Below are positions 4,131-25,767 of a stretch of DNA of 32,000 bases, in pieces; position 1 is the first letter of the stretch; each line of letters opens with the position of its first letter. A program made the translations under genes and the position numbers. The stretch is from Candidatus Saccharimonadota bacterium (GTDB lineage: Bacteria > Pseudomonadota > Gammaproteobacteria > Enterobacterales > Enterobacteriaceae). Below the pieces are notes generated by a model. The model did not search any database and was not told where the DNA came from. It saw only the letters and a list, made by a program, of their open reading frames with translations. The stretch lies in the NCBI GenBank assembly GCA_049942965.1, contig CP188088.1, positions 330,001-362,000 on the forward strand. The letters run 5' to 3'.

Positions 4131-4697
4131 ATTTAAAATCCTTTACAATAACCAATAATTAAAAATTTTTAATAATTCAACAAATCATTACTAAAACAAA
4201 ATTTTTTTATTTTTTAAAAATTATTTTAAAAAATACAAAAAATTAAATAATTTCAAAATTCTTAACAAGACAACAATATTTAATAATTTTAAAAAAATAT
4301 TAAAAATCTTTAAATTCTATAAAATTTTAATAAAAAATAAGATCTAAAAATTAAACTAATTTATATTGTAAAAAATATAAATCTTATATATAATAGTTAG
4401 AAAATTTTTTGAGCTGTTTTTAAAAAAATTTTTAAAAAAATCATTCTAAGAAATAACTTTCTATATTTAAAAATTTTAAAAATATTTAAAACATTTACAC
4501 AAAAAAAATTAATTTATCTTAATATTTTTTTAAATTAATGTTCTTAAAAAATATTAAAAAAATTAAAATTTATTAAAAAAACAAAAAATTTTCTTTTAAA
4601 AAAATTATAAAAAATTATTTTTTAAAATTTTTTAATAAAAAATATATTAAAAATCCATACAATATTTAAATTCTGCATATTTTTTAAAAATTATGAA

Positions 4698-7289
4698 TCA
4701 TTTTCTTAATACAGAATAAAAACTAGAATAATTTTTATTATTTATCTTTTTTAAAAAATTATTATAACTTTTACTAATATTAAAATCTAAATTAGAATCT
4801 TTATTCTGAAATAAAAAAGAAATAACTTCATACTTAAACTCATGAATCATAGAACAAAATAAATAAAAAGATTCCCTTTTATATTCTTGTTTTGGATCTT
4901 TTTGAGCATAAGATCTCAATTGTATTCCTTGTCTTAAATTATCCATAGCAAATAAATGTTCGGTCCAAAAAGAATCTAACATAGATACAACGACAAATTT
5001 TTCATATTTTTTAAAAATTTTAGAAAAATATAACTTTTTTAAACTCAAATAATAATTAACACAAAGATCAATCAAATTTGATGAAAAATCATTTTTTTTT
5101 AATTTTTTATTGCAATTTATCCATTTAAAAATCGAAGATTCTAAAAAAAAGTCATTTTTTAAATGAATAATTAATTTATTAAAATTTAATGTTTCTTTTT
5201 TAGAAACAACAGAAAAATAAAAATTAATTACTTCTAATAATACATCTTTTATTATCTTTATAATAAGATTACTGATTTCTGGAAGATCGATTATTTTTTT
5301 TCTATAGCTATAAACAATTTTTCTTTGAGAGTTCATTACATCATCATATTCTAACAACTGTTTTCTATAAAGAAAATTCATATTTTCTACTTTTCTTTGA
5401 GCTTGTCTTACTGCCTTAGAAACCCATCGATGTTCAATTGGATCTCCTTTTTTCATTCCTAATTTTCTCATAAAATCAATCAATCTTTCTGATGAAAAAA
5501 TACGTATTAAAGAATCTTGCATTGATAAATAAAATCTAGACGACCCCACATCTCCTTGACGACCAGATCTACCTCTTAATTGATTATCAATCCTTCTAGA
5601 TTCATGTCTCTCGGTACCAATAATATGCAAACCTCCAGATAATAAAACTTTTTTATGATTTTCATCCCATTTTTTAAATACATTTTTATTAAAATTAGAA
5701 TCACTATTCTTTTTAGAAAAAAAACAATCCAAACTACCTCCTAAAACTATATCTGTACCTCTTCCTGCCATATTTGTAGCTATTGTAACGGCCCCAACCA
5801 TACCTGCTTTAGAAATAATTTCAGCTTCTTTAGAATGATGTTTTGCATTTAAAACGTTATGTTTTATTTTTAGTTTTTTTAGTTTTTTAGAAATAAATTC
5901 AGATTTTTCAATTGATATAGTTCCAACTAATACAGGTTGTTTTCTTTTAACACATTTTATTATATCTTCAATTATTGCATTTATTTTTTCTTCTTTAGTA
6001 ACATATATTAAATCTGGAAGATCTTTCCGAATCATTGGTCGATTAGTTGGAATAGATACAGTTTTTAAACCATAAATAGAATTGAATTCAAAAGCTTCTG
6101 TAGAAGCTGTTCCAGTCATTCCAGATAACTTTTCATAAAGACGAAAATAATTTTGAAAAGTTATTGATGCTAAAGTTTGGTTTTCAGATTTTATTTCAAC
6201 ATGTTCCTTTGCTTCTATAGCTTGATGTAATCCTTCAGACCATCTTCTTCCATGCATCATTCTTCCAGTGTGTTCGTCAATAATAACGATTTGGTTATCG
6301 TTTACAACATAATCTATGTTTTTTAGAAATAGTTCATTTGCTTTTAATGCAGATAATACGTATTGAATTAATACAATATTATTTTTTGAATATAGATTCT
6401 CATTTTTATTTATTATTTTTTTTTCTAAGAATAATTTCTCAATTTTAATTAATCCTCTTTCAGTTAAATGAACCTGACGAAACTTTTTATCTACAAAATA
6501 ATCTCCTTTGCCTAAAAAATTATCAGAATCTTCCTTTTTTTGTTTTAATAAAACAGAAACAAGTTCATTTATTTTTACATGTATCTTTGGATTTTCTTCA
6601 ATTGGACCTGATATAATCAAAGGAGTTCGAGATTCATCTATTAAAATTGAATCTACTTCATCTATTAACGCGTAAAACAATTTCCTTTGTACTCGTTCTT
6701 CTTTAACATAAACCATATTATCTCTTAGATAATCGAATCCATATTCATGATTTGTTCCGTAAGTAATATCACATCGATAAGCCATCTTTTTTAACTGATT
6801 TGTTAAGTTTGGCAAATTAATTCCTACACTTAATCCTAAAAATTCAAATAATGGTCTATTTTTTTCAGCATCTCTTTTCGCTAAATAATCATTCATTGTA
6901 ACTACATGAACACCTTTTTCTTGTAATGCATTTAAATAAATAGGTAAAGTAGAAGTTAATGTCTTTCCCTCCCCTGTTTTCATTTCAGCTATACAATTTT
7001 TATTTAATACGATTCCTCCCATTAGTTGAACATCAAAATGCCTCATTCCAAATATTCTTCGACTAGCTTCTCGAACTGTTGCATACGATTCTGGAATTAA
7101 TTTATCAAGAGAACACTGTTCATTTATTATTCGATGTTTAAATTTTATTGTTTTTTCTTGTAATTTTTTATCTGACAAAGATTTAAACTTATCTTCCATT
7201 GAATTAATTAATTCTACTGTTTTCTCAACTTCTGTAAAAAATTTATTATTTCGATTAAAAAGAATTTTTTTAAAAAAATTAATTAACAT
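4698..7289 (-). CDS. secA: Preprotein translocase ATPase SecA (lacks the C-terminal zinc-finger tail)
   Basis: 863-aa ORF. The N-terminus MLINFFKKILFNRNNKFF matches the SecA N-terminus. Walker A is MKTGEGKTLT, the DEAD-like motif is LIDEVDSILIDE, and TNMAGRGTDI is present. Confidence 0.95.
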   Translation of the reverse strand: MLINFFKKILFNRNNKFFTEVEKTVELINSMEDKFKSLSDKKLQEKTIKFKHRIINEQCSLDKLIPESYATVREASRRIFGMRHFDVQLMGGIVLNKNCIAEMKTGEGKTLTSTLPIYLNALQEKGVHVVTMNDYLAKRDAEKNRPLFEFLGLSVGINLPNLTNQLKKMAYRCDITYGTNHEYGFDYLRDNMVYVKEERVQRKLFYALIDEVDSILIDESRTPLIISGPIEENPKIHVKINELVSVLLKQKKEDSDNFLGKGDYFVDKKFRQVHLTERGLIKIEKLFLEKKIINKNENLYSKNNIVLIQYVLSALKANELFLKNIDYVVNDNQIVIIDEHTGRMMHGRRWSEGLHQAIEAKEHVEIKSENQTLASITFQNYFRLYEKLSGMTGTASTEAFEFNSIYGLKTVSIPTNRPMIRKDLPDLIYVTKEEKINAIIEDIIKCVKRKQPVLVGTISIEKSEFISKKLKKLKIKHNVLNAKHHSKEAEIISKAGMVGAVTIATNMAGRGTDIVLGGSLDCFFSKKNSDSNFNKNVFKKWDENHKKVLLSGGLHIIGTERHESRRIDNQLRGRSGRQGDVGSSRFYLSMQDSLIRIFSSERLIDFMRKLGMKKGDPIEHRWVSKAVRQAQRKVENMNFLYRKQLLEYDDVMNSQRKIVYSYRKKIIDLPEISNLIIKIIKDVLLEVINFYFSVVSKKETLNFNKLIIHLKNDFFLESSIFKWINCNKKLKKNDFSSNLIDLCVNYYLSLKKLYFSKIFKKYEKFVVVSMLDSFWTEHLFAMDNLRQGIQLRSYAQKDPKQEYKRESFYLFCSMIHEFKYEVISFLFQNKDSNLDFNISKSYNNFLKKINNKNYSSFYSVLRK

Positions 7290-7755
7290 ATTGTATTCTC
7301 ATTAATATAAAAATATTTTTTAAAATTTAACAAAATTATTTATAACTTTTTTATATACAAAATTAAACTAAATCAAATTTTCAAACTATTAAATTTTTAA
7401 TTTTTTAAAATAAAATAAAAGTTTAATACTTTAATTACAAAATTACGTTAAAAAATTACTCAATTTAAAAAAAATATACAAAAAATATTTATAAAATTTT
7501 AATTAAATTATTTGAGTTACCTGTAAAAAAATATATGTAATATGTTTGAAAAAGAAATAATATTTATGTTCAAACATAAAAAAATTAAAAAATTATTTTT
7601 AAAATAATCGATAAATAAAATTTCTAAATAAAATCTATAACTTTGTTTCAAAGAAATATTTTTTTTTCTTTTAAACAATATGTATAGATAGCAAAAAAAA
7701 CTATCTATCATATTCATATATTAAAAATATACTTATTTTTTTAAATGTATAAATT

Positions 7756-9333
7756 TTATTTGTATATCATTTTTTTTTTTTTTTTTTTTTTTTTTGATTT
7801 GATTTTTCTAGAAGAAATTTCTTGAAATCTAAATATATCATTCAATATATCTATTATAGCTGTGATTACAGAATTTAAAAAATCAAAAGAAGAACTTGTT
7901 GCAAAAAATTCTCGGTTACAATATCGAACTATAATATCTAATTTAATTATAGAACTATCATTGATCCCATTAGAAACCAAATTACATTTTTCCAAAAAGA
8001 ACTCAAAACCAACTATTTTCTTTATTGTTTTATAAATAGCTGCAATTATTCCATTTCTTGTTTTAGTAATTGAAGTTTTTTTTTCTTTTCCACAGAGTAA
8101 AGTAACTGATGCAACTGATAGCCCATCTGATCCTGATGTAACATTAAAAGAACCTAATTGAAAATATTTGTATTCTATTTCATTAATATTCATAAACATT
8201 AATGATTCTAAATCAGAATCAAATATTCTTCCTTTTTTGTCAGCCAAATTTAAAAAACTTGAATATAATTTATTTAAGTTATATTCTTCTTCTAAATATC
8301 CTAATTTTTTCATTCTATGTTTAACTGCTGCTCTTCCAGAACGTGAAGTTAAATTTAATTGTACTGGTTTCATACCAACTATTTCTGGAGAAATAATTTC
8401 ATAGTTATTTCTATTTTTTAACACTCCGTCTTGATGTACCCCAGAAGAATGAGAATAAGCATTGCTTCCAACAATGGATTTATTAAAAGGAATAGGAATA
8501 TTACAAACATCACTAACTATTTTACTAGTTCTATAAATTTCCTTACAGTTAATATTAGTAAATACATTTAATATATCTCTTCTCGTTTTTATTGCCATAA
8601 TAATTTCTTCTAAAGCAGTATTTCCAGCTCTTTCACCTAAACCATTTATAGTTCCTTCAATCTGTCTTGCACCTGACTGTATAGCAGCAATAGAATTTCC
8701 AACAGCCATTCCTAAATCATTATGACAATGTACTGAAATAATAGCTGATCCAATATTTGGAACACGATTATATAAAGAAGTAATTATTTTTGAAAATTCA
8801 CTAGGAATAGTAAATCCAACTGTATCAGGAATATTAATTGTATTTGCTCCAGCTTTTATTGCTAATTCTACTATTTTACATAAATTATCAATTTCAGTTC
8901 TTCCGGCATCTTCGCAAGAAAATTCAACATCGTCTGTATATTTTTTAGCTTTTTTAATTGAATAAACAGCTAGATCAATAATTTCTGTAAAGCTTTTTTT
9001 TAATTTAGACGTAATATGTAGAGAAGAAGTTCCCAAAAATAAATGTATTCTAAAATTATTCGACTGAGACATAGCTAAAGCAGCTGTTTCAATATCTTTT
9101 TCAACACAACGAGCTAAACCACATATTCTAGAATCTTTTATATTAGATGCAATAATTTCCGTAGACTTAAAATCTCCAGGAGAAGAAACAGGAAAACCTA
9201 CTTCAATAACATCTACACCCATTTTTTCTAAAGAGAAAGCAATTTTCATTTTCTCTTTTGGACTTAAACTAGATTGTAATGATTGTTCTCCATCTCTTAA
9301 TGTTGTATCAAAAATTATAACTCTTTCTTTCAT
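7756..9333 (-). CDS. leuA: 2-isopropylmalate synthase
   Basis: 525-aa ORF. The N-terminus [24 protein letters not shown] is the LeuA signature, and [13 protein letters not shown] is present. The 3' end runs through a 26-nt homopolymer, giving ...[14 protein letters not shown]. Confidence 0.95.
7770..7795 (-). repeat. 26-nt homopolymer (T26 on + strand, A26 in the leuA mRNA sense)
   Basis: Counted directly: t at 7770, then 7771-7790 all t, then 7791-7795 t, followed by g at 7796. Confidence 0.95.
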
Positions 9334-9717
9334 AGTAGATATCTCTTAGTATTATATTAAATTTAAAAAACATATTCGTATACTAAATAAAACTACATTT
9401 AATATAGATTTCTCTTTGAAAGAAAACAAACATAACTATAAATGATATTAACTTTAAATTTAACATAACATTATTCATAAGTACTATGGATGTTTTCTTA
9501 AAAAAATTTCTAATAAGAAAGAAATTTAATTTATTTTAAAAGATCTAAACAAAAATAGTCAATTTTTCACTAATGTAATTAATTTCTTTAAAATTAAATA
9601 AACAATTCGTTCCTTTAAAAAAAACAAAAAACTTTTTGTTTAAAAAAATAAACATCAAAAAATAAAAAATAAATTTATTTTTAAAATAAGAATTTTAAAT
9701 TAGTAAAAACCTACATT

Positions 9718-10335
9718 TTATCTAAAAAAAGATGGAATATCACTTTCATAATCTAATATTTTAGACTCTTTTTTCATTGTTAAATCAATAGCATCCAAAC
9801 CATTTAAAAGAACTTCTTTATTAAATTTACTAATATAAAATTTATATTCTTTTTTATCAATCGAAATACTTTGATTTAATAAATTGACTATACATTTTAT
9901 TCCAATATTATTTTTAACTAAATGAAATAATTCATCAATTATATCTTCTGATAAGACTACTAACAATAAGTTATTGTTAATACTATTGTTATAAAATATG
10001 TCTGCAAAGCTAGAAGAAATAACGACTCGAAAACCATAATCTAAAATAGCCCAAACAGCATGTTCTCTAGATGATCCACATCCAAAATTTTTTCTACTTA
10101 ACAAAATGCTAGAATTAAGATATTCACATTTATTTAAAATGAAATCAAAATTCTTATTTTTTCTATCAGTATCTAAAAACCTCCAATCATGAAATAGATA
10201 TTTACCAAATCCATCTTTAGTTGTTTGTTGTAAAAATTGTTTAGGAATAATAGCATCTGTATCAACATTATCAATATCAAGAGGTAGAACTATTCCAGAA
10301 TGACTTATAAATTTATTATTAATCATGCAATACAT
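9718..10335 (-). CDS. leuD: 3-isopropylmalate dehydratase small subunit
   Basis: 205-aa ORF. ...[27 protein letters not shown] matches E. coli LeuD ([27 protein letters not shown]). By alignment the true start may be the 4th codon (ATG at 10326, MINNKF...). Confidence 0.93.
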   Translation of the reverse strand: [205 protein letters not shown]

Positions 10336-10341
10336 CCTTAC

Positions 10342-11757
10342 TTATAATATTTTATTTATTTTCAATTTTCTAACGTCAACAAATCGTCCATATAAAGCTG
10401 CAGCTGCTGCCATTGCTGGACTAACTAAATGAGTTCTCCCACCTCTTCCTTGACGTCCTTCAAAATTTCTATTACTAGTAGATGCACACCGTTCTCCTTT
10501 AAGTAATTTATCCTCATTCATTCCTAAACACATAGAACAACCAGGTAATCTCCATTCAAATCCAGCATCAATAAAAATTTTATCTAATCCTTCTTTTTCT
10601 GCTTGTATCTTTACTATTTTAGAACCAGGAACAACAATTCCAGTAACTCTTTTACAAATCTTGTTTCCAGCAACAAAACTTGCTGCCAATCTTAAATCTT
10701 CTATTCTAGAATTAGTACAAGAACCGATAAAAACCTTATCAATTAAAATATCTGTTATTTTCATACCTGGTAATAAATCCATATACTTCATCGATTTTTC
10801 TGCAGCAATTCTTTTGTTAAAATTTTTAAAAGAATCTATATTTGGAATTGATTCATTAATTCCAACCACTTGTTCAGGATTTGTACCCCAAGTAACTTGA
10901 GGAGTAAAATCAGAAATATCAAAAAATAATTCACTATCAAACTTGACGTCTACATCTGACTTTAACGTATCCCAAAAAGTTAAGGCACGATTCCATTCCA
11001 AACCTTTCGGAGCATATTTTCTATTATTTAAATAATTATATGTAATTTGATCTGGAGCTATTATGGCTGATTTAGCACCCATTTCAATAGCCATATTACA
11101 TAATGTCATTCTACTTTCCATACTTAAATTAGAAACTACAGATCCAAAAAATTCTACTACATATCCAGTTCCCGCAGAAATACCAATTTTCCCTATGATA
11201 CTTAATATTATATCTTTTGCTGTGATTCCAAAATTTAATTTTCCAGATATTGTAATTTTCATTGTTTTAGAACGAAATTGTTTCAAAGTTTGCGTTGCTA
11301 GTACATGTTCAACTTCAGAAGTTCCTATACCAAAGGACAAAGTCCCAAATGCTCCGTGAGTAGAAGTATGAGAATCACCACATACAACTGTCATTCCTGG
11401 CAATGTTAATCCTTGTTCCGGACCAACAACATGTACAATTCCTTGACGAGAACTATTCAAATCAAATAATTTAATATCAAATTCTTTACAATTTTTTGAT
11501 AACATATCCATTTGAATTTTTGCTAACTTTTCAGTATTAAGAATATTTCTACTTGTAGTAGAAACATTATGGTCCATGGTAGCAAAAGTTTTCTCTGGAC
11601 GTCTTACTGATCTATTTTTATTACGTAAAGATGAAAAAGCTTGTGGGGAAGTAACTTCATGCAACAAATGTAAATCAATATATAAAATAGGAGGTTCATT
11701 ACTAGACTCATAAACTATATGTTTATCATATATTTTTTGATATAAAGTTTTTTTCAT
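10342..11757 (-). CDS. leuC: 3-isopropylmalate dehydratase large subunit
   Basis: 471-aa ORF starting [15 protein letters not shown], with aconitase-family Fe-S ligand regions ([31 protein letters not shown]). Confidence 0.95.
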
Positions 11758-11761
11758 TAAA

Positions 11762-12865
11762 CTATTCCTTATTAATTAAATAATCGGAAATTTTACTACC
11801 CATACTACTAGTACTTAGAAGAACTTCATTAATATCTGTTGTCATAATATCAAAAGTTCTATAACCTTCTTTTAATACGTCAATTACCGAAGATTCAATA
11901 GAATCTGCTATATGTATTAATTTTAAACTATATCGAAATAGCATTGACAGTGATAAAATTAATGCAATTGGATTAGCAATATTTTTACCAGATATATCTG
12001 GTGCAGATCCACCTGCAGGTTCATATAATCCAAAATTTGATTCATTTAAACTAGCAGATGGTAACATTCCAATAGAACCAGTGATCATTCCACATTCATC
12101 CGATAAAATATCTCCAAAAAGATTTGGACATAACATTACGTCAAAATTAATAGGATTTTTTATTATTTGCATACTAGCATTATCTACATACAAATGATTT
12201 AAAGAAACTTCTGGAAAATTTTTAGAAACTTTATTAACTATTTCTCTCCATAAAATTGAAGTTTCTAATACATTAGATTTATCAATAGAAGTAACTTTAC
12301 CTCTCCTTAATTTAGCCATTTTAAAAGCAATATTCGCTACTCTAGCTATTTCATTTTCATGATAGGTAGCTGTATCAACAGCATATTTTTTTTTTAAATT
12401 GTCTATTCTTTGACCCTTCGGGGATCCATAATATATACCACCTATTAATTCCCTAATACATAGAATATCAAACCCATTTTTAACAATTTTTGATTTAAGC
12501 GGGGACAAATGAGATAAACTTGAATATAGTTTAGAAGGTCTAATATTAACAAATAAATTTAATAATTTTCTTAACGGTAATAAAGCAGCCCTTTCTGGTT
12601 GTTGTTCAATAGAAAGATTTTTCCATTTATCTCCTCCTACTGAACCAAACAATACTGCGTCCGACATTAAACAACCATTAATTGTATCTTTTGGTAAAGC
12701 TAATCCAAATTTATCAATAGCAATACCACCAATAAAATATTCTTTAAAATCTAATTTTAACTTAAATTTTTTTTTTACTGATTCTAAAATTTTAATCCCT
12801 TCTTCCATAATTTCAGGACCTATTCCATCACCAGACAAAATGGCTAATTTATACTTTTTACTCAT
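11762..12865 (-). CDS. leuB: 3-isopropylmalate dehydrogenase
   Basis: 367-aa ORF. The N-terminus [14 protein letters not shown] and the motifs [10 protein letters not shown] and [14 protein letters not shown] are typical of LeuB. Confidence 0.95.
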
Positions 12866-12909
12866 TTGCTGTACCTTAATAAAAAAATTAATATATTAAA
12901 ATTAAAAAA

Positions 12910-13710
12910 CTAAAAAAAAAATTTTTTACTAAATTGAGGAAAACCAAAATTAGATGGGTAATTTACATGAACTAAATATAAACCACGAGCTAAAGCTGTA
13001 GGACCAGACAATTTCCTATTTTTACTTCTTAAAATTTTGTTGATCCAAGATATATTTTTTTTCTTTAATCCTACTTCAATCAATGAACCAACTATATTAC
13101 GAACCATCTTATATAAAAATGCATTTGCTTCTATTTCTATTATAACAAAAAAATTTTTCCTAAAAATATTTAATCTAATTATATTACGAAAAGCAGTCTT
13201 CGATTGACAATTCTTGGCTCTAAATCCACTAAAATCATGTTCTCCCAAGAGATATTTTGATCCATTAATCATTAACTCAACATCTAATTCTTTAAAAATA
13301 TGATTTAAAAAATTTGAAAATATACCATTTCTATACGGACCATTATAAATAACATATCGATATAACCTAGATAATGAGCTATATCTAGCATGAAAGTTAA
13401 ATGGAACAGTTTTAATCCATTGAACAGAAATATCAGAAGGTAAAAAAGAGTTTATTCCTAAAACCCAAGAAAAATTTTCACGGTAAGATGTAGTACAAAA
13501 ATGTGCTATTTGACCAATGCTATGAACTCCAGTATCAGTTCTACCTGAACAAATAACAGTAATAGGATGATTAGCAATAATAGAAATTGCTTTTTCTAAT
13601 TTTTCTTGAATAGTAGTATTTATACTTTTTTGTTTTTGCCAACCATTGTAATACGTCCCATCATATTCAATACATAAAGCAAATTTTTTCTCTATTTTTT
13701 TTTTCTGCAT
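12910..13710 (-). CDS. truA: tRNA pseudouridine(38-40) synthase
   Basis: 266-aa ORF. FALCIEYDGTYYNGWQKQ and the catalytic-Asp region CSGRTDTGVHSIGQ are the TruA signatures. Confidence 0.9.
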   Translation of the reverse strand: MQKKKIEKKFALCIEYDGTYYNGWQKQKSINTTIQEKLEKAISIIANHPITVICSGRTDTGVHSIGQIAHFCTTSYRENFSWVLGINSFLPSDISVQWIKTVPFNFHARYSSLSRLYRYVIYNGPYRNGIFSNFLNHIFKELDVELMINGSKYLLGEHDFSGFRAKNCQSKTAFRNIIRLNIFRKNFFVIIEIEANAFLYKMVRNIVGSLIEVGLKKKNISWINKILRSKNRKLSGPTALARGLYLVHVNYPSNFGFPQFSKKFFF

Positions 13711-14612: not shown

Positions 14613-15836
14613 ATGACACTAATTATCCATAAATACTATAAATTCCTAAAAAAAAAAAAAATAAGTAAAAATGCAATTAAAGTATTAATTCGTTTAAAAA
14701 AAACTGGTTATCAATCTTATTTAGTTGGTGGAAGTGTCAGAGATTTAATTTTAGGAAAATTACCAAAAGATTTTGACATTGCTACTAATGCAACCCCTGA
14801 GCAACTAAAAAAAATATTTAAAAATTGTCGAATAATAGGAAGAAGATTTCGAATAGCACATATTATGTTTAAATCTGAATTTATTGAAGTATCTACTTTT
14901 AGAAAAAATCATAATAAAAAATCAACAAATAAAAAAAATAAAAAAATCAAAAAAACAATTAATGGAATGTTACTAAATGATAACATTTTTGGTAATATAG
15001 AAGATGATTATAAAAGAAGAGACATAACCATTAATGCACTTTATTATGATATTAATACTTCAATTATTCGAGATTATGTTGGAGGACTAGAAGATCTAAA
15101 AAAAAAAAAAATAAGACTAATAGGTGATCCTGAAACTAGATATAGAGAAGATCCAATTAGAATATTACGAGTTATTCGATTTGCAGTAAAACTAAAAATG
15201 AAAATTTCAAAAAAAACAGAAGAACCAATAACTAGATTGGCAATTTTATTAAAAAATATTCCATCTTCTCGATTATTTTATGAAATTAGCAAATTAATAC
15301 AAACAGGAGAAGGATATAAAATATATAAAAAATTTAAAAAATATAAATTATTTAATTCAGTTTTCTTTTTTCCAAATATTAAAATTGATCTAAAAACAAA
15401 AAAATTAATTAAAGAAATTAGTATAAAAGCTATTAAACTAATAGATGACAAAGTAAAAAAACAAAAACAAGAAAACGATGAGACAGACTTTTTATTTTCA
15501 TCTATTTTGTGGTACTTTCTAGTAAATACAAAAAAAAAAATACAAAAAGAAAACAAAACTGAAGAAAAAGAATCATTTTTAAATGCTATCGAACAAATTT
15601 TTAAAAATATCATTCCATATTTTAAAATACCTAAACAAATCCTTTCTAATTGCAAAGAAATATGGAAATTACAATGGTTTTTAGAAAATAATTTTAAAAA
15701 AAGTAAAATTATAAAAAAAATAACTAAAAAACAAAAATTTCAAAAGTCCTATAATTTACTAAAAATACGTTCAGAAATAGAAAACAATATACAATTATAT
15801 AAAATTGAAAAAATATGGAAAAAACATAACAAATAA
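14613..15836 (+). CDS. pcnB: Poly(A) polymerase I
   Basis: 407-aa ORF. YLVGGSVRDLILGKLPKDFDIATNATPEQLKKIFKNCRIIGRRFRIAHIMF...IEVSTFR is collinear with E. coli PcnB ([50 protein letters not shown]). It lies downstream of dksA as in E. coli, with gluQ missing between them. Confidence 0.85.
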   Translation: MTLIIHKYYKFLKKKKISKNAIKVLIRLKKTGYQSYLVGGSVRDLILGKLPKDFDIATNATPEQLKKIFKNCRIIGRRFRIAHIMFKSEFIEVSTFRKNHNKKSTNKKNKKIKKTINGMLLNDNIFGNIEDDYKRRDITINALYYDINTSIIRDYVGGLEDLKKKKIRLIGDPETRYREDPIRILRVIRFAVKLKMKISKKTEEPITRLAILLKNIPSSRLFYEISKLIQTGEGYKIYKKFKKYKLFNSVFFFPNIKIDLKTKKLIKEISIKAIKLIDDKVKKQKQENDETDFLFSSILWYFLVNTKKKIQKENKTEEKESFLNAIEQIFKNIIPYFKIPKQILSNCKEIWKLQWFLENNFKKSKIIKKITKKQKFQKSYNLLKIRSEIENNIQLYKIEKIWKKHNK

Positions 15837-25376: not shown

Positions 25377-25767
25377 GGGGCTGTTTTTGGATTTGACAAA
25401 TTAACTGGAAACTTAAGTGCATGTCGAGGAGTTCGGTTGGCCTCGTAAAAAAACCGATAAAAAATAATAGCAGCAAAAACAAAAAATTACGCTTTAGCAG
25501 CTTAAAAAACTAGTTATAGCCCTTCTTATTTATTCTAATATTTCTCTTTTAGAACAAATAAAAATTCTTTTAAGAAGGATAAATTTAAGAGAATGATTGT
25601 GAATAAATTCTGTAAATTCACATATCATATAAAAAAACAGAATTACTTATTATCTTTGATTCTGTACAAAAATAATAAGGAACAATATATACAGAATAAA
25701 CATGTAGAACTAGAGTTGAAAGTGATTTGGACACGGGTTCGAATCCCGTCAGCTCCAATATTATTTA
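25377..25767 (+). ncRNA. ssrA: tmRNA (SsrA)
   Basis: The 5' end ggggctgtttttggatttgac parallels E. coli GGGGCUGAUUCUGGAUUCGAC. The 3' end ggacacgggttcgaatcccgtcagctcca forms the T-arm and acceptor stem, including the G3:U pair. The tag ORF is gca gca aaa aca aaa aat tac gct tta gca gct taa (25470-25505) = AAKTKNYALAA*. The 3' CCA is not encoded; the next bases are ata. Confidence 0.93.

What the first reader, a model, noticed from the sequence alone, without database searches (positions are those of the whole stretch)
7756..12865. Chromosomal leucine cluster with circularly permuted order leuB-leuC-leuD / 384-bp spacer / leuA
What the sequence shows:
- On the minus strand the order is truA, leuB, leuC, leuD, a 384-bp non-coding spacer (9334-9717), leuA, a 466-bp spacer, then secA.
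- The near-universal operon order is leuA-leuB-leuC-leuD.

Established knowledge: in many Buchnera lineages leuABCD sits on a small circular plasmid together with repA and yqhA-type genes, while some lineages carry it on the chromosome.

Inference:
- B-C-D-[spacer]-A is what a circular leuABCD-rep plasmid would give if it were opened between leuA and leuB and integrated. The 384-bp spacer would then be the eroded replication region.
- The alternative is a local translocation of leuA within an ancestral chromosomal cluster. In E. coli the leu operon lies in the same chromosomal region as secA, separated by ilvIH and the dcw cluster.
- Either way leuA is now a separate transcription unit from leuBCD, which changes how the first committed step is expressed relative to the rest of the pathway.
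Basis: partly seen in the sequence, partly recalled or inferred. Interest (0 to 1): 0.65.

Follow-up and report, generated by a model that had tools for sequence, protein, structure and literature searches.

The report
Buchnera chromosomal leucine genes, order B-C-D-A
This is the leucine-synthesis gene cluster of an aphid symbiont (Buchnera of Tetraneura akinire); its unusual gene order is real, but it is the usual order on leucine plasmids of most non-Aphidinae Buchnera and was not created when the genes entered this chromosome, so the case is ordinary and already described.

Summary
On the minus strand the order is truA, leuB, leuC, leuD, a 384-bp spacer, leuA, a 466-bp spacer, secA. All four leu genes are intact.

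The window comes from Buchnera aphidicola of Tetraneura akinire. T. ulmi and Eriosoma lanigerum Buchnera have the same cluster at the same site. That site is truA-mrcB-secA in A. pisum Buchnera and truA-72 bp-secA in Periphyllus. The cluster is therefore an insertion.

- B-C-D-A with a short D-A gap (44-329 bp) already exists on leucine plasmids of five other aphid subfamilies. Their rep genes lie between leuA and leuB, not between leuD and leuA.
- The same order occurs at two other chromosomal sites, in Melaphis and Chaitophorus.
- Neither spacer holds a detectable rep, yqhA, ibp, mrcB or DnaA-box remnant.
- The replicon survives separately. The sequencing run behind this genome contains a roughly 1.78-kb circular yqhA-repA1 contig.

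The order therefore predates integration, and the spacer matches the plasmids' own leuD-leuA intergenic region in position. Published work already reports the order and the transfer of leu genes from plasmid back to chromosome. Whether leuA has its own promoter remains untested. Interest is low.

The parts
12910..13710 (-). truA, the left flank of the insertion site
   Evidence: TIGR00071 match at 212 bits. A 100% identical TruA lies on a 530,863-bp contig. truA is followed by mrcB-secA in A. pisum Buchnera and directly by secA in Periphyllus.
12866..12909 (.). 44-bp truA-leuB gap
   Evidence: The gap is 11 bp in T. ulmi and 233 bp in E. lanigerum. It is too short to hold a plasmid ori or rep. 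By inference, leuBCD is probably read through from truA or started from a promoter inside truA.
11762..12865 (-). leuB, 3-isopropylmalate dehydrogenase
   Evidence: TIGR00169 match at 472 bits, cut-off 353.
10342..11757 (-). leuC, isopropylmalate dehydratase large subunit
   Evidence: TIGR00170 match at 782 bits, cut-off 560.
9718..10335 (-). leuD, isopropylmalate dehydratase small subunit
   Evidence: NF002458 match at 266 bits, cut-off 167.
9334..9717 (.). 384-bp leuD-leuA intergenic spacer, 14.8% GC
   Evidence: The same gap exists in relatives: 390 bp in T. ulmi, 418 in E. lanigerum, 540 in Melaphis, 115-157 in Chaitophorus, and 44-329 bp on plasmids. There is no protein or DNA similarity to rep, yqhA, ibp or plasmid arcs above shuffled controls. 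There is no DnaA box and no Rfam hit. It is the least conserved of the intergenic spacers of useful length compared with T. ulmi, at 66% over aligned pairs. Only the last ~30 bp before the leuA ATG are conserved.
7756..9333 (-). leuA, 2-isopropylmalate synthase, with its C-terminal regulatory domain
   Evidence: NF002084 match at 803 bits, cut-off 748. The closest relatives carry Pfam HMGL-like, HCS_D2 and LeuA_dimer domains. It is 84% identical to T. ulmi Buchnera LeuA.
7770..7795 (-). A26 homopolymer near the 3' end of leuA, encoding a lysine run
   Evidence: An independent assembly of the same sample has A17, and that is the only difference over 7.5 kb.
7290..7755 (.). 466-bp leuA-secA spacer, 10.7% GC
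   Evidence: No mrcB or rep remnant rises above noise. The 66-aa ORF at 7517-7717 has no family match and is broken by stops in T. ulmi.
4698..7289 (-). secA, the right flank of the insertion site
   Evidence: NF009538 match at 1151 bits.

Best explanation
The region is the chromosomal leucine-biosynthesis cluster of Buchnera aphidicola from the aphid Tetraneura akinire.

What it is:
- It is a copy of the leuB-leuC-leuD-gap-leuA module that leucine plasmids of most non-Aphidinae Buchnera carry.
- The module lies between truA and secA. That site holds mrcB in A. pisum Buchnera and nothing in Periphyllus.
- It arrived there before Tetraneura and Eriosoma diverged.
- The permuted order therefore predates the integration.
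- By position, the 384-bp spacer corresponds to the leuD-leuA intergenic region of the plasmids. It has drifted and probably expanded. It is not a decayed replication region.
- The replication part of the ancestral plasmid (the divergent yqhA-repA1 pair with ori) was not carried along, or was lost at the edges. It survives as a separate ~1.8-kb circle in the same symbiont.

How it works:
- The four enzymes convert 2-oxoisovalerate to 2-oxoisocaproate, the leucine precursor. This follows from established knowledge of LeuA, LeuCD and LeuB.
- By inference, leuBCD is most likely transcribed from upstream, in or before truA, because the truA-leuB gap is only 11-44 bp in Tetraneura.
- Also by inference, leuA is either read through or started from an unmapped promoter in the spacer.
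- Plasmid-to-chromosome is the more likely direction of transfer, but this window does not prove it.
For: - Gene identities and coordinates.
- Organism: TruA is 100% identical to a protein on a 530,863-bp contig. That is the published genome size of T. akinire Buchnera, CP188088.
- Same cluster at the same site in T. ulmi and E. lanigerum.
- Site without the cluster: truA-mrcB-secA in A. pisum Buchnera, and truA-72 bp-secA-aceE in Periphyllus with otherwise identical neighbours.
- Same B-C-D-gap-A order at other chromosomal sites: yggS|ruvX in Melaphis rhois and dcd|gnd in Chaitophorus viminalis.
- Same order on plasmids, with rep between leuA and leuB: Thelaxes suberi, Tuberolachnus, Mindarus, Greenidea, Ceratoglyphina and Cinara species, by coordinates.
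- The pLeu ori is placed between repA1 and leuB in T. salignus, T. suberi and C. cedri (PMC4898801).
- Mini-plasmids carrying only yqhA and repA1 occur in T. ulmi and E. lanigerum. One also occurs in run SRR33632138, the T. akinire run. That contig has a 30-bp terminal overlap and is 83% identical and collinear with the T. ulmi plasmid.
- All Buchnera leu genes form one clade. leuA and leuBCD show no well-supported conflict.
- Literature: the chromosomal location is attributed to back-transfer, and the A-D-C-B order is reported for Fordini and listed under Eriosomatinae.
Against: - The direction of transfer is not shown here. A chromosomal B-C-D-A module captured onto a yqhA-repA plasmid would leave the same pattern.
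- Homology of the 384-bp spacer to the plasmid D-A gaps rests on position only. At 9-15% GC no sequence similarity can be detected between subfamilies.
- The spacer is longer than any plasmid D-A gap sampled (384 against at most 329 bp), so some of it may have another origin.
- I could not check whether the truA-secA site is empty in Fordini, or whether the yggS-ruvX and dcd-gnd sites are empty in Tetraneura.
- The trees are simple neighbour-joining trees with weak internal support. The E. coli outgroup record has a frameshifted leuB.
Confidence: 0.8

Rival explanations
1. A circular leuA-B-C-D-rep plasmid was opened between leuA and leuB and integrated whole. The 384-bp leuD-leuA spacer is what remains of its replication region.
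For: Aphidinae plasmids are repA2-leuA-B-C-D-repA1-yqhA circles. Cutting one between leuA and leuB would formally give B-C-D-[rep]-A. At 15% GC, the absence of a remnant is weak evidence.
Against: - Every B-C-D-A plasmid sampled, from five subfamilies, has a short D-A gap and carries rep in the A-to-B arc.
- The same order at three chromosomal sites would need three independent cuts in the ~60-bp leuA-leuB junction.
- No rep, yqhA or ibp similarity, no plasmid DNA similarity and no DnaA box was found.
- The replicon persists intact outside the chromosome in the same sample.
Confidence: 0.04
2. Local rearrangement. An ancestral chromosomal leuABCD operon near secA lost its neighbours, and leuA was translocated to the far side of leuD.
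For: In E. coli the leu operon and secA lie in the same early part of the chromosome map.
Against: - The truA-secA interval holds mrcB or nothing in other Buchnera with the same neighbours.
- The E. coli neighbours of the leu operon (leuO, the ilv genes, sgrR) are not adjacent here.
- An identical order on plasmids and at two other sites makes a local event at this site unnecessary.
Confidence: 0.03
3. Reverse direction. The B-C-D-A module is ancestrally chromosomal in Buchnera. It was captured one or more times by a yqhA-repA mini-plasmid to make pLeu. The Eriosomatini cluster never resided on a plasmid, although it moved within the chromosome.
For: - Lineages with chromosomal leu genes carry exactly the pLeu backbone without the leu module. 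That fits capture as well as loss.
- pLeu equals the mini-plasmid plus the module.
Against: - At least four different chromosomal sites were found in genomes otherwise known for extreme synteny. None has the enterobacterial leu neighbours.
- The published analysis favours back-transfer from plasmids.
- This model needs as many or more moves.
Confidence: 0.13

Closest known systems
Chromosomal leucine clusters of Buchnera from Eriosomatinae (formerly Pemphiginae) and Chaitophorinae. Source: Sabater-Munoz et al. 2004, J Bacteriol 186:2646, as cited in PMC3229713. Gene order A-D-C-B is reported in PMC11188193.
   Same: The same four genes in the same B-C-D-A order on the chromosome, with the same interpretation of back-transfer from a plasmid. 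T. ulmi and E. lanigerum have the identical site.
   Different: Nothing material. This window is another species of the same tribe. I could not open the 2004 paper itself, so what it says is taken from citing papers and from my memory of its abstract.
pLeu plasmids of non-Aphidinae Buchnera: Thelaxes suberi 8.5 kb, Tuberolachnus salignus 6.5 kb, and those of Mindarus, Greenidea, Ceratoglyphina and Cinara.
   Same: leuB-leuC-leuD, a short gap, then leuA, all on one strand. The proteins are 55-68% identical to those of the window.
   Different: These are circular and carry repA (with or without yqhA and ibp) plus ori between leuA and leuB. Their D-A gap is 44-329 bp, against 384 bp here.
pLeu of Aphidinae Buchnera, for example A. 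pisum, NC_002253.
   Same: The same four genes from the same Buchnera clade.
   Different: The order is A-B-C-D, with the leuD-to-leuA arc occupied by repA1, yqhA and repA2.
yqhA-repA1 mini-plasmids of Buchnera whose leu genes are chromosomal: T. ulmi 1751 bp and E. lanigerum 2503 bp. B. pistaciae carries a 2399-bp plasmid with repA1 and repA2.
   Same: A collinear ~1.78-kb circle, 83% identical, occurs in the T. akinire sequencing run.
   Different: It is not part of the window. The genome announcement lists no plasmid for this strain.
E. coli leuLABCD operon.
   Same: The enzymes are orthologous.
   Different: The order is A-B-C-D, with a leuL leader peptide and attenuator and the neighbours leuO and sgrR. 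Here there is no leader ORF conserved between Tetraneura species and no Rfam leader match.

Membership tests
Buchnera chromosomal leu cluster derived from the pLeu-type B-C-D-A module | Four intact leu genes of Buchnera ancestry | tested here: met
   All four exceed the NCBIfam cut-offs. In neighbour-joining trees all Buchnera copies form one clade with 100% bootstrap, and the window pairs with T. ulmi.
Buchnera chromosomal leu cluster derived from the pLeu-type B-C-D-A module | Order leuB-leuC-leuD-gap-leuA on one strand, as on non-Aphidinae plasmids | tested here: met
   Window. Plasmids.
Buchnera chromosomal leu cluster derived from the pLeu-type B-C-D-A module | Located at a non-ancestral site that is contiguous in other Buchnera | tested here: met
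   truA-mrcB-secA in A. pisum Buchnera. truA-72 bp-secA in Periphyllus. The E. coli leu neighbours are absent.
Buchnera chromosomal leu cluster derived from the pLeu-type B-C-D-A module | Insertion shared by sister lineages, implying one old event | tested here: met
   T. ulmi and E. lanigerum have the same flanks and the same order.
Buchnera chromosomal leu cluster derived from the pLeu-type B-C-D-A module | Transfer went from plasmid to chromosome | not testable with these tools
   This needs ancestral-state reconstruction over all Buchnera genomes. Here it is supported only by the multiplicity of sites and by the literature.
   - tblastn best hits are within the range of shuffled controls.
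- The best blastn hit scores 61.7 bits, against up to 68 bits for shuffled queries.
- There is no DnaA box within 1 mismatch in either spacer.
- Erosion could hide a remnant, so this test alone is weak.
   This is true only for Aphidinae. Plasmids from the five other subfamilies have leuD-gap-leuA adjacency and rep in the leuA-to-leuB arc.
Enterobacterial attenuator-controlled leuLABCD operon | A-B-C-D order with a leuL leader peptide and attenuator upstream of leuA | tested here: not met
   The order is B-C-D-A. There is no Rfam match at E<=1 in 7200-9800. The small ORF in the spacer is not conserved in T. ulmi. There is no terminator-like hairpin.

The most novel reading that the evidence does not exclude
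The B-C-D-gap-A arrangement may not be a neutral relic. It may be a maintained design in which leuA, the feedback-controlled first step, is expressed from its own start site in the gap.

The leu module would then behave as a discrete cassette. It has repeatedly separated from the yqhA-repA1-ori backbone by breaks in the same plasmid arc. Each time it landed at a different chromosomal site and left a self-replicating mini-circle behind.

That would point to a recurrent, site-biased recombination or breakage process in genomes thought to lack recombination machinery.
Probability: 0.15. Interest if true: 0.4.

Novelty: already known. Interest (0 to 1): 0.12.

Why it matters
It matters little beyond bookkeeping. 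The case shows that an odd gene order in a symbiont chromosome can be inherited from a plasmid stage rather than made by the integration event. A non-coding gap should therefore not be read as a decayed replicon without checking plasmid maps in relatives.

The broader, established interest lies in how Buchnera moves amino-acid genes between plasmid and chromosome, which changes gene dosage for the host's leucine supply. This window adds one more species to a pattern described in 2004 and again in 2024.

One small practical point follows. The published T. akinire Buchnera assembly probably misses a ~1.8-kb plasmid.

Tried and rejected
- The genome-contig scan with LeuA returned mostly distant bacteria and only one Buchnera (Chaitophorus). 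I reused the other loci as a rough survey of leu gene orders.
- The key papers are not held: Sabater-Munoz 2004, van Ham 1997 and van Ham 2003. Their content is taken from citing papers.
- Relaxed tblastn of RepA1, RepA2, YqhA, Ibp, MrcB, MutT, CoaE and GuaC against all spacers of the window and relatives found nothing above shuffled controls. The one exception is a borderline coaE piece in the secA-aceE spacer.
- blastn of the window spacers against plasmid non-leu arcs, D-A gaps and mini-plasmids (a first attempt timed out) stayed within the noise.
- A DnaA-box search found no match in the spacers.
- Rfam searches found only the tmRNA elsewhere in the window.
- The promoter scan found 55 sites against 54.8 expected, so it is uninformative. 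The one good match in the spacer (9562-9533) is not conserved in T. ulmi.
- Terminator search and folding gave one terminator-like site in the whole region, inside leuB on the wrong strand. The hairpin after leuD has z = -0.69 and is absent in T. ulmi. The whole spacer has z = -2.05, which is marginal.
- The 66-aa ORF at 7517-7717 is rejected as a gene.
- A leader-peptide reading of the 31-codon ORF in the spacer is rejected. In T. ulmi the same ATG is followed by a stop after 3 codons.
- The last contig look-up (a Thelaxes TruA) found nothing.


Full report
**1. What is in the window**

On the minus strand:
- truA 13710-12910.
- A 44-bp gap.
- leuB 12865-11762.
- leuC 11757-10342.
- leuD 10335-9718.
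- A 384-bp non-coding stretch, 9717-9334, 14.8% GC.
- leuA 9333-7756.
- A 466-bp non-coding stretch.
- secA 7289-4698.
- A 567-bp stretch.
- aceE 4130-1467.

dksA and pcnB lie on the other strand upstream of truA. All four Leu proteins score well above the curated equivalog cut-offs, so the pathway genes are intact.

**2. Whose genome it is**
- The nearest named LeuA (84% identity) is from Buchnera aphidicola of Tetraneura ulmi.
- The window's TruA is 100% identical to a protein on a 530,863-bp contig.
- That is exactly the genome size published for Buchnera of Tetraneura akinire, CP188088 (PMC12243488).
- A Logan contig from that paper's Illumina run, SRR33632138, matches 7.5 kb of the window with no mismatch and one 9-base gap.

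**3. The cluster is an insertion shared by a tribe**
- T. ulmi Buchnera has truA | leuB-C-D - 390 bp - leuA | secA - aceE.
- Eriosoma lanigerum Buchnera has the same, with a 418-bp gap.
- A. pisum Buchnera has dksA | truA - mrcB - secA - mutT - coaE - guaC - aceE.
- Periphyllus testudinaceus Buchnera has hpt - pcnB - dksA | truA - 72 bp - secA - aceE. This equals the window's neighbourhood minus the leu cluster.
- The site is not the enterobacterial home of the operon. In E. coli that is leuO - leuL - leuABCD - sgrT/sgrR, with ilv genes just beyond leuO.

**4. The permuted order is not special to this chromosome**

The same B-C-D-gap-A order occurs at two other chromosomal sites:
- yggS | ... 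| ruvX in Melaphis rhois (Fordini), with a 540-bp gap.
- dcd | ... | gnd in Chaitophorus viminalis, with a 115-157 bp gap.

It also occurs on leucine plasmids. Gap sizes are leuD to leuA:

| Host aphid | Gap | What follows leuA |
|---|---|---|
| Thelaxes suberi | 88 bp | ibp, yqhA, repA2, repA1 |
| Tuberolachnus salignus | 329 bp | repA, 341 bp downstream |
| Mindarus keteleerifoliae | 193 bp | repA |
| Greenidea ficicola | 61 bp | two repA genes |
| Ceratoglyphina bambusae | 44 bp | yqhA, repA |

Two Cinara species show the same leuD-leuA adjacency by coordinates.

In every one of these plasmids the replication genes lie in the arc from leuA round to leuB. PMC4898801 places the plasmid origin between repA1 and leuB in three of these lineages.

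A-B-C-D is found on Aphidinae plasmids, on the Nipponaphis plasmid with a 1.2-kb A-B gap, and on the Phyllaphis fagi chromosome between minE and tsaB.

**5.

The model needs a circle cut between leuA and leuB, with rep ending up between leuD and leuA. The plasmids that share the window's order already have leuD next to leuA and carry rep elsewhere. The order therefore predates integration. By position, the 384-bp spacer corresponds to the plasmids' own D-A intergenic region.

Three chromosomal sites with the same order would otherwise need three independent cuts in the ~60-bp leuA-leuB junction.

**6. Direct search for remnants**
- tblastn used RepA1 and RepA2 (three lineages), YqhA, Ibp, MrcB, MutT, CoaE and GuaC. 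The targets were 15 spacers from the window and relatives, at E<=10. No rep, yqhA, ibp or mrcB hit rose above ten shuffled controls, whose best scores were 25-30 bits.
- The only top hit with a sensible meaning is the C-terminal piece of coaE in the secA-aceE spacer. It scores 31 bits, lies at about 4502-4633, and is on the strand expected from A. pisum synteny.
- blastn of the window spacers against plasmid non-leu arcs, D-A gaps and mini-plasmids gave a best score of 61.7 bits. Shuffled queries reached 68 bits.
- No DnaA box within one mismatch lies in either spacer.
- No Rfam family matches 7200-9800 at E<=1.
- At 9-15% GC a negative result is weak evidence by itself. Here it agrees with the comparative evidence.

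**7. The replicon is alive elsewhere**
- The T. ulmi and E. lanigerum assemblies each include a small plasmid holding only divergently oriented yqhA and repA1, of 1751 and 2503 bp.
- Baizongia and Anoecia Buchnera also have ~1.5-2.4-kb rep plasmids.
- Run SRR33632138, the T. akinire run, contains an 1810-bp contig with yqhA and repA1. It has a 30-bp terminal overlap, so it is a circle of about 1780 bp. It is 83% identical and collinear with the T. ulmi plasmid.
- That divergence matches the one between the two chromosomes (88-89% in leu coding DNA).
- The pLeu backbone therefore persists without the leu module in the very symbiont whose chromosome carries the module.

**8. Do leuA and leuBCD share a history?**
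- Window-to-relative identities are parallel for the four proteins.
- Neighbour-joining trees with 200 bootstraps put all Buchnera copies in one clade (100%). The window pairs with T. ulmi (100%), and Eriosoma joins them in the leuBCD tree (70%) and the leuABCD tree (81.5%).
- The leuA tree does not recover that Eriosoma grouping. It places the Eriosomatinae copies plus Chaitophorus in one clade at 92.5%.
- Nodes that differ between the leuA and leuBCD trees have bootstrap support of at most 85.5%.
- Caveats: these are simple distance trees, and the E. coli outgroup record has a frameshifted leuB.

**9. The spacer and transcription**
- Compared with T. ulmi, the D-A spacer is the least conserved of the intergenic regions of useful length. 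It shows 66% identity over aligned pairs, against 70-80% for the others. The 44-bp versus 11-bp truA-leuB gap is too short to compare. Shuffled sequences give about 49% over alignment columns.
- Only the last ~30 bp, holding the ribosome-binding region before the leuA ATG, is well conserved.
- The promoter scan finds no excess over shuffles (55 against 54.8). Its best hit in the spacer is not conserved.
- No terminator-like hairpin follows leuD. Folding of the whole spacer is marginal, z = -2.05.
- The small ORF in the spacer is not conserved, so it is not a leader peptide.
- Whether leuA is a separate transcription unit therefore stays open.
- The truA-leuB gap is only 44 bp, and 11 bp in T. 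ulmi. This suggests leuBCD depends on transcription coming from truA or from a promoter inside it. That is inference.

**10. What is already known**
- PMC3229713 summarises the pLeu maps. It states that the chromosomal location in Pemphiginae and Chaitophorinae 'seems not to be of ancestral origin' and is explained by back-transfers, citing Sabater-Munoz et al. 2004.
- PMC11188193 (2024) reports three leu orders across subfamilies. It gives A-D-C-B, the reverse reading of B-C-D-A, for Fordini, lists it under Eriosomatinae, and notes repeated plasmid-chromosome movements.
- The bioRxiv paper 10.1101/2022.08.28.505559 mentions pYqhA plasmids and historical inversions among pLeu plasmids.
- The finding is therefore a correct reading of a known feature, with a mechanism that the comparative data contradict.

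**11. Verdict**

Plasmid kinship holds. A cut between leuA and leuB, and a spacer that is a dead replicon, do not. Novelty: already known. Interest: low.

Noticed in passing
Not in the window: locus L096 (Logan contig SRR33632138_27419, 1810 bp): The Illumina run of the T. akinire sample contains a circular ~1.78-kb contig with a 30-bp terminal overlap. It carries divergent yqhA and repA1 and is 83% identical and collinear with the T. ulmi Buchnera plasmid. The genome announcement for this strain lists 0 plasmids.
   Followed up: partly
window 7770-7795 (minus strand, 3' end of leuA): A run of 26 A encodes a lysine tract just before the LeuA C-terminus. The independent Illumina assembly of the same sample has 17 A, the only difference over 7.5 kb, and T. 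ulmi has no such run. This is either an assembly or polishing uncertainty, or real length variation at a slippage-prone tract.
   Followed up: partly
window 4131-4697 (secA-aceE spacer), best signal about 4502-4633 on the + strand: A. pisum Buchnera has mutT, coaE and guaC between secA and aceE, and here all three are gone. A borderline tblastn match (31 bits, 43% over 44 residues) to the CoaE C-terminus lies on the strand expected from synteny. E. lanigerum still has a 48-aa CoaE fragment and guaC.
   Followed up: partly
window 12866-13710 and 7290-7755, compared with L084 and L098: mrcB (penicillin-binding protein 1b) lies between truA and secA in A. pisum Buchnera. It is absent from this site in Tetraneura, Eriosoma and Periphyllus, with no detectable remnant. 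I did not check whether it is present elsewhere in those genomes.
   Followed up: no
window 14613-15836 (+), compared with L084 7510-9173: Between hpt and dksA this genome has pcnB (poly(A) polymerase), as do T. ulmi, Eriosoma and Periphyllus. A. pisum Buchnera has panC-panB there and no pcnB. The lineages lost different genes from the ancestral region.
   Followed up: no
window 7517-7717 (minus strand): A 66-aa ORF in the leuA-secA spacer has no family match and is interrupted by stop codons in T. ulmi. It is most likely a chance ORF in AT-rich DNA.
   Followed up: yes
window 25377-25760 (+): A tmRNA gene (ssrA) with tag peptide AKTKNYALAA is the only Rfam gathering-level RNA match in the window.
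   Followed up: no
locus L091 (E. coli CP054241.1, filed as an 834-kb 'plasmid' in PLSDB): The record carries the chromosomal leu region, and its leuB is split over two frames. It is probably a frameshifted or misassembled chromosomal fragment filed as a plasmid.
   Followed up: no
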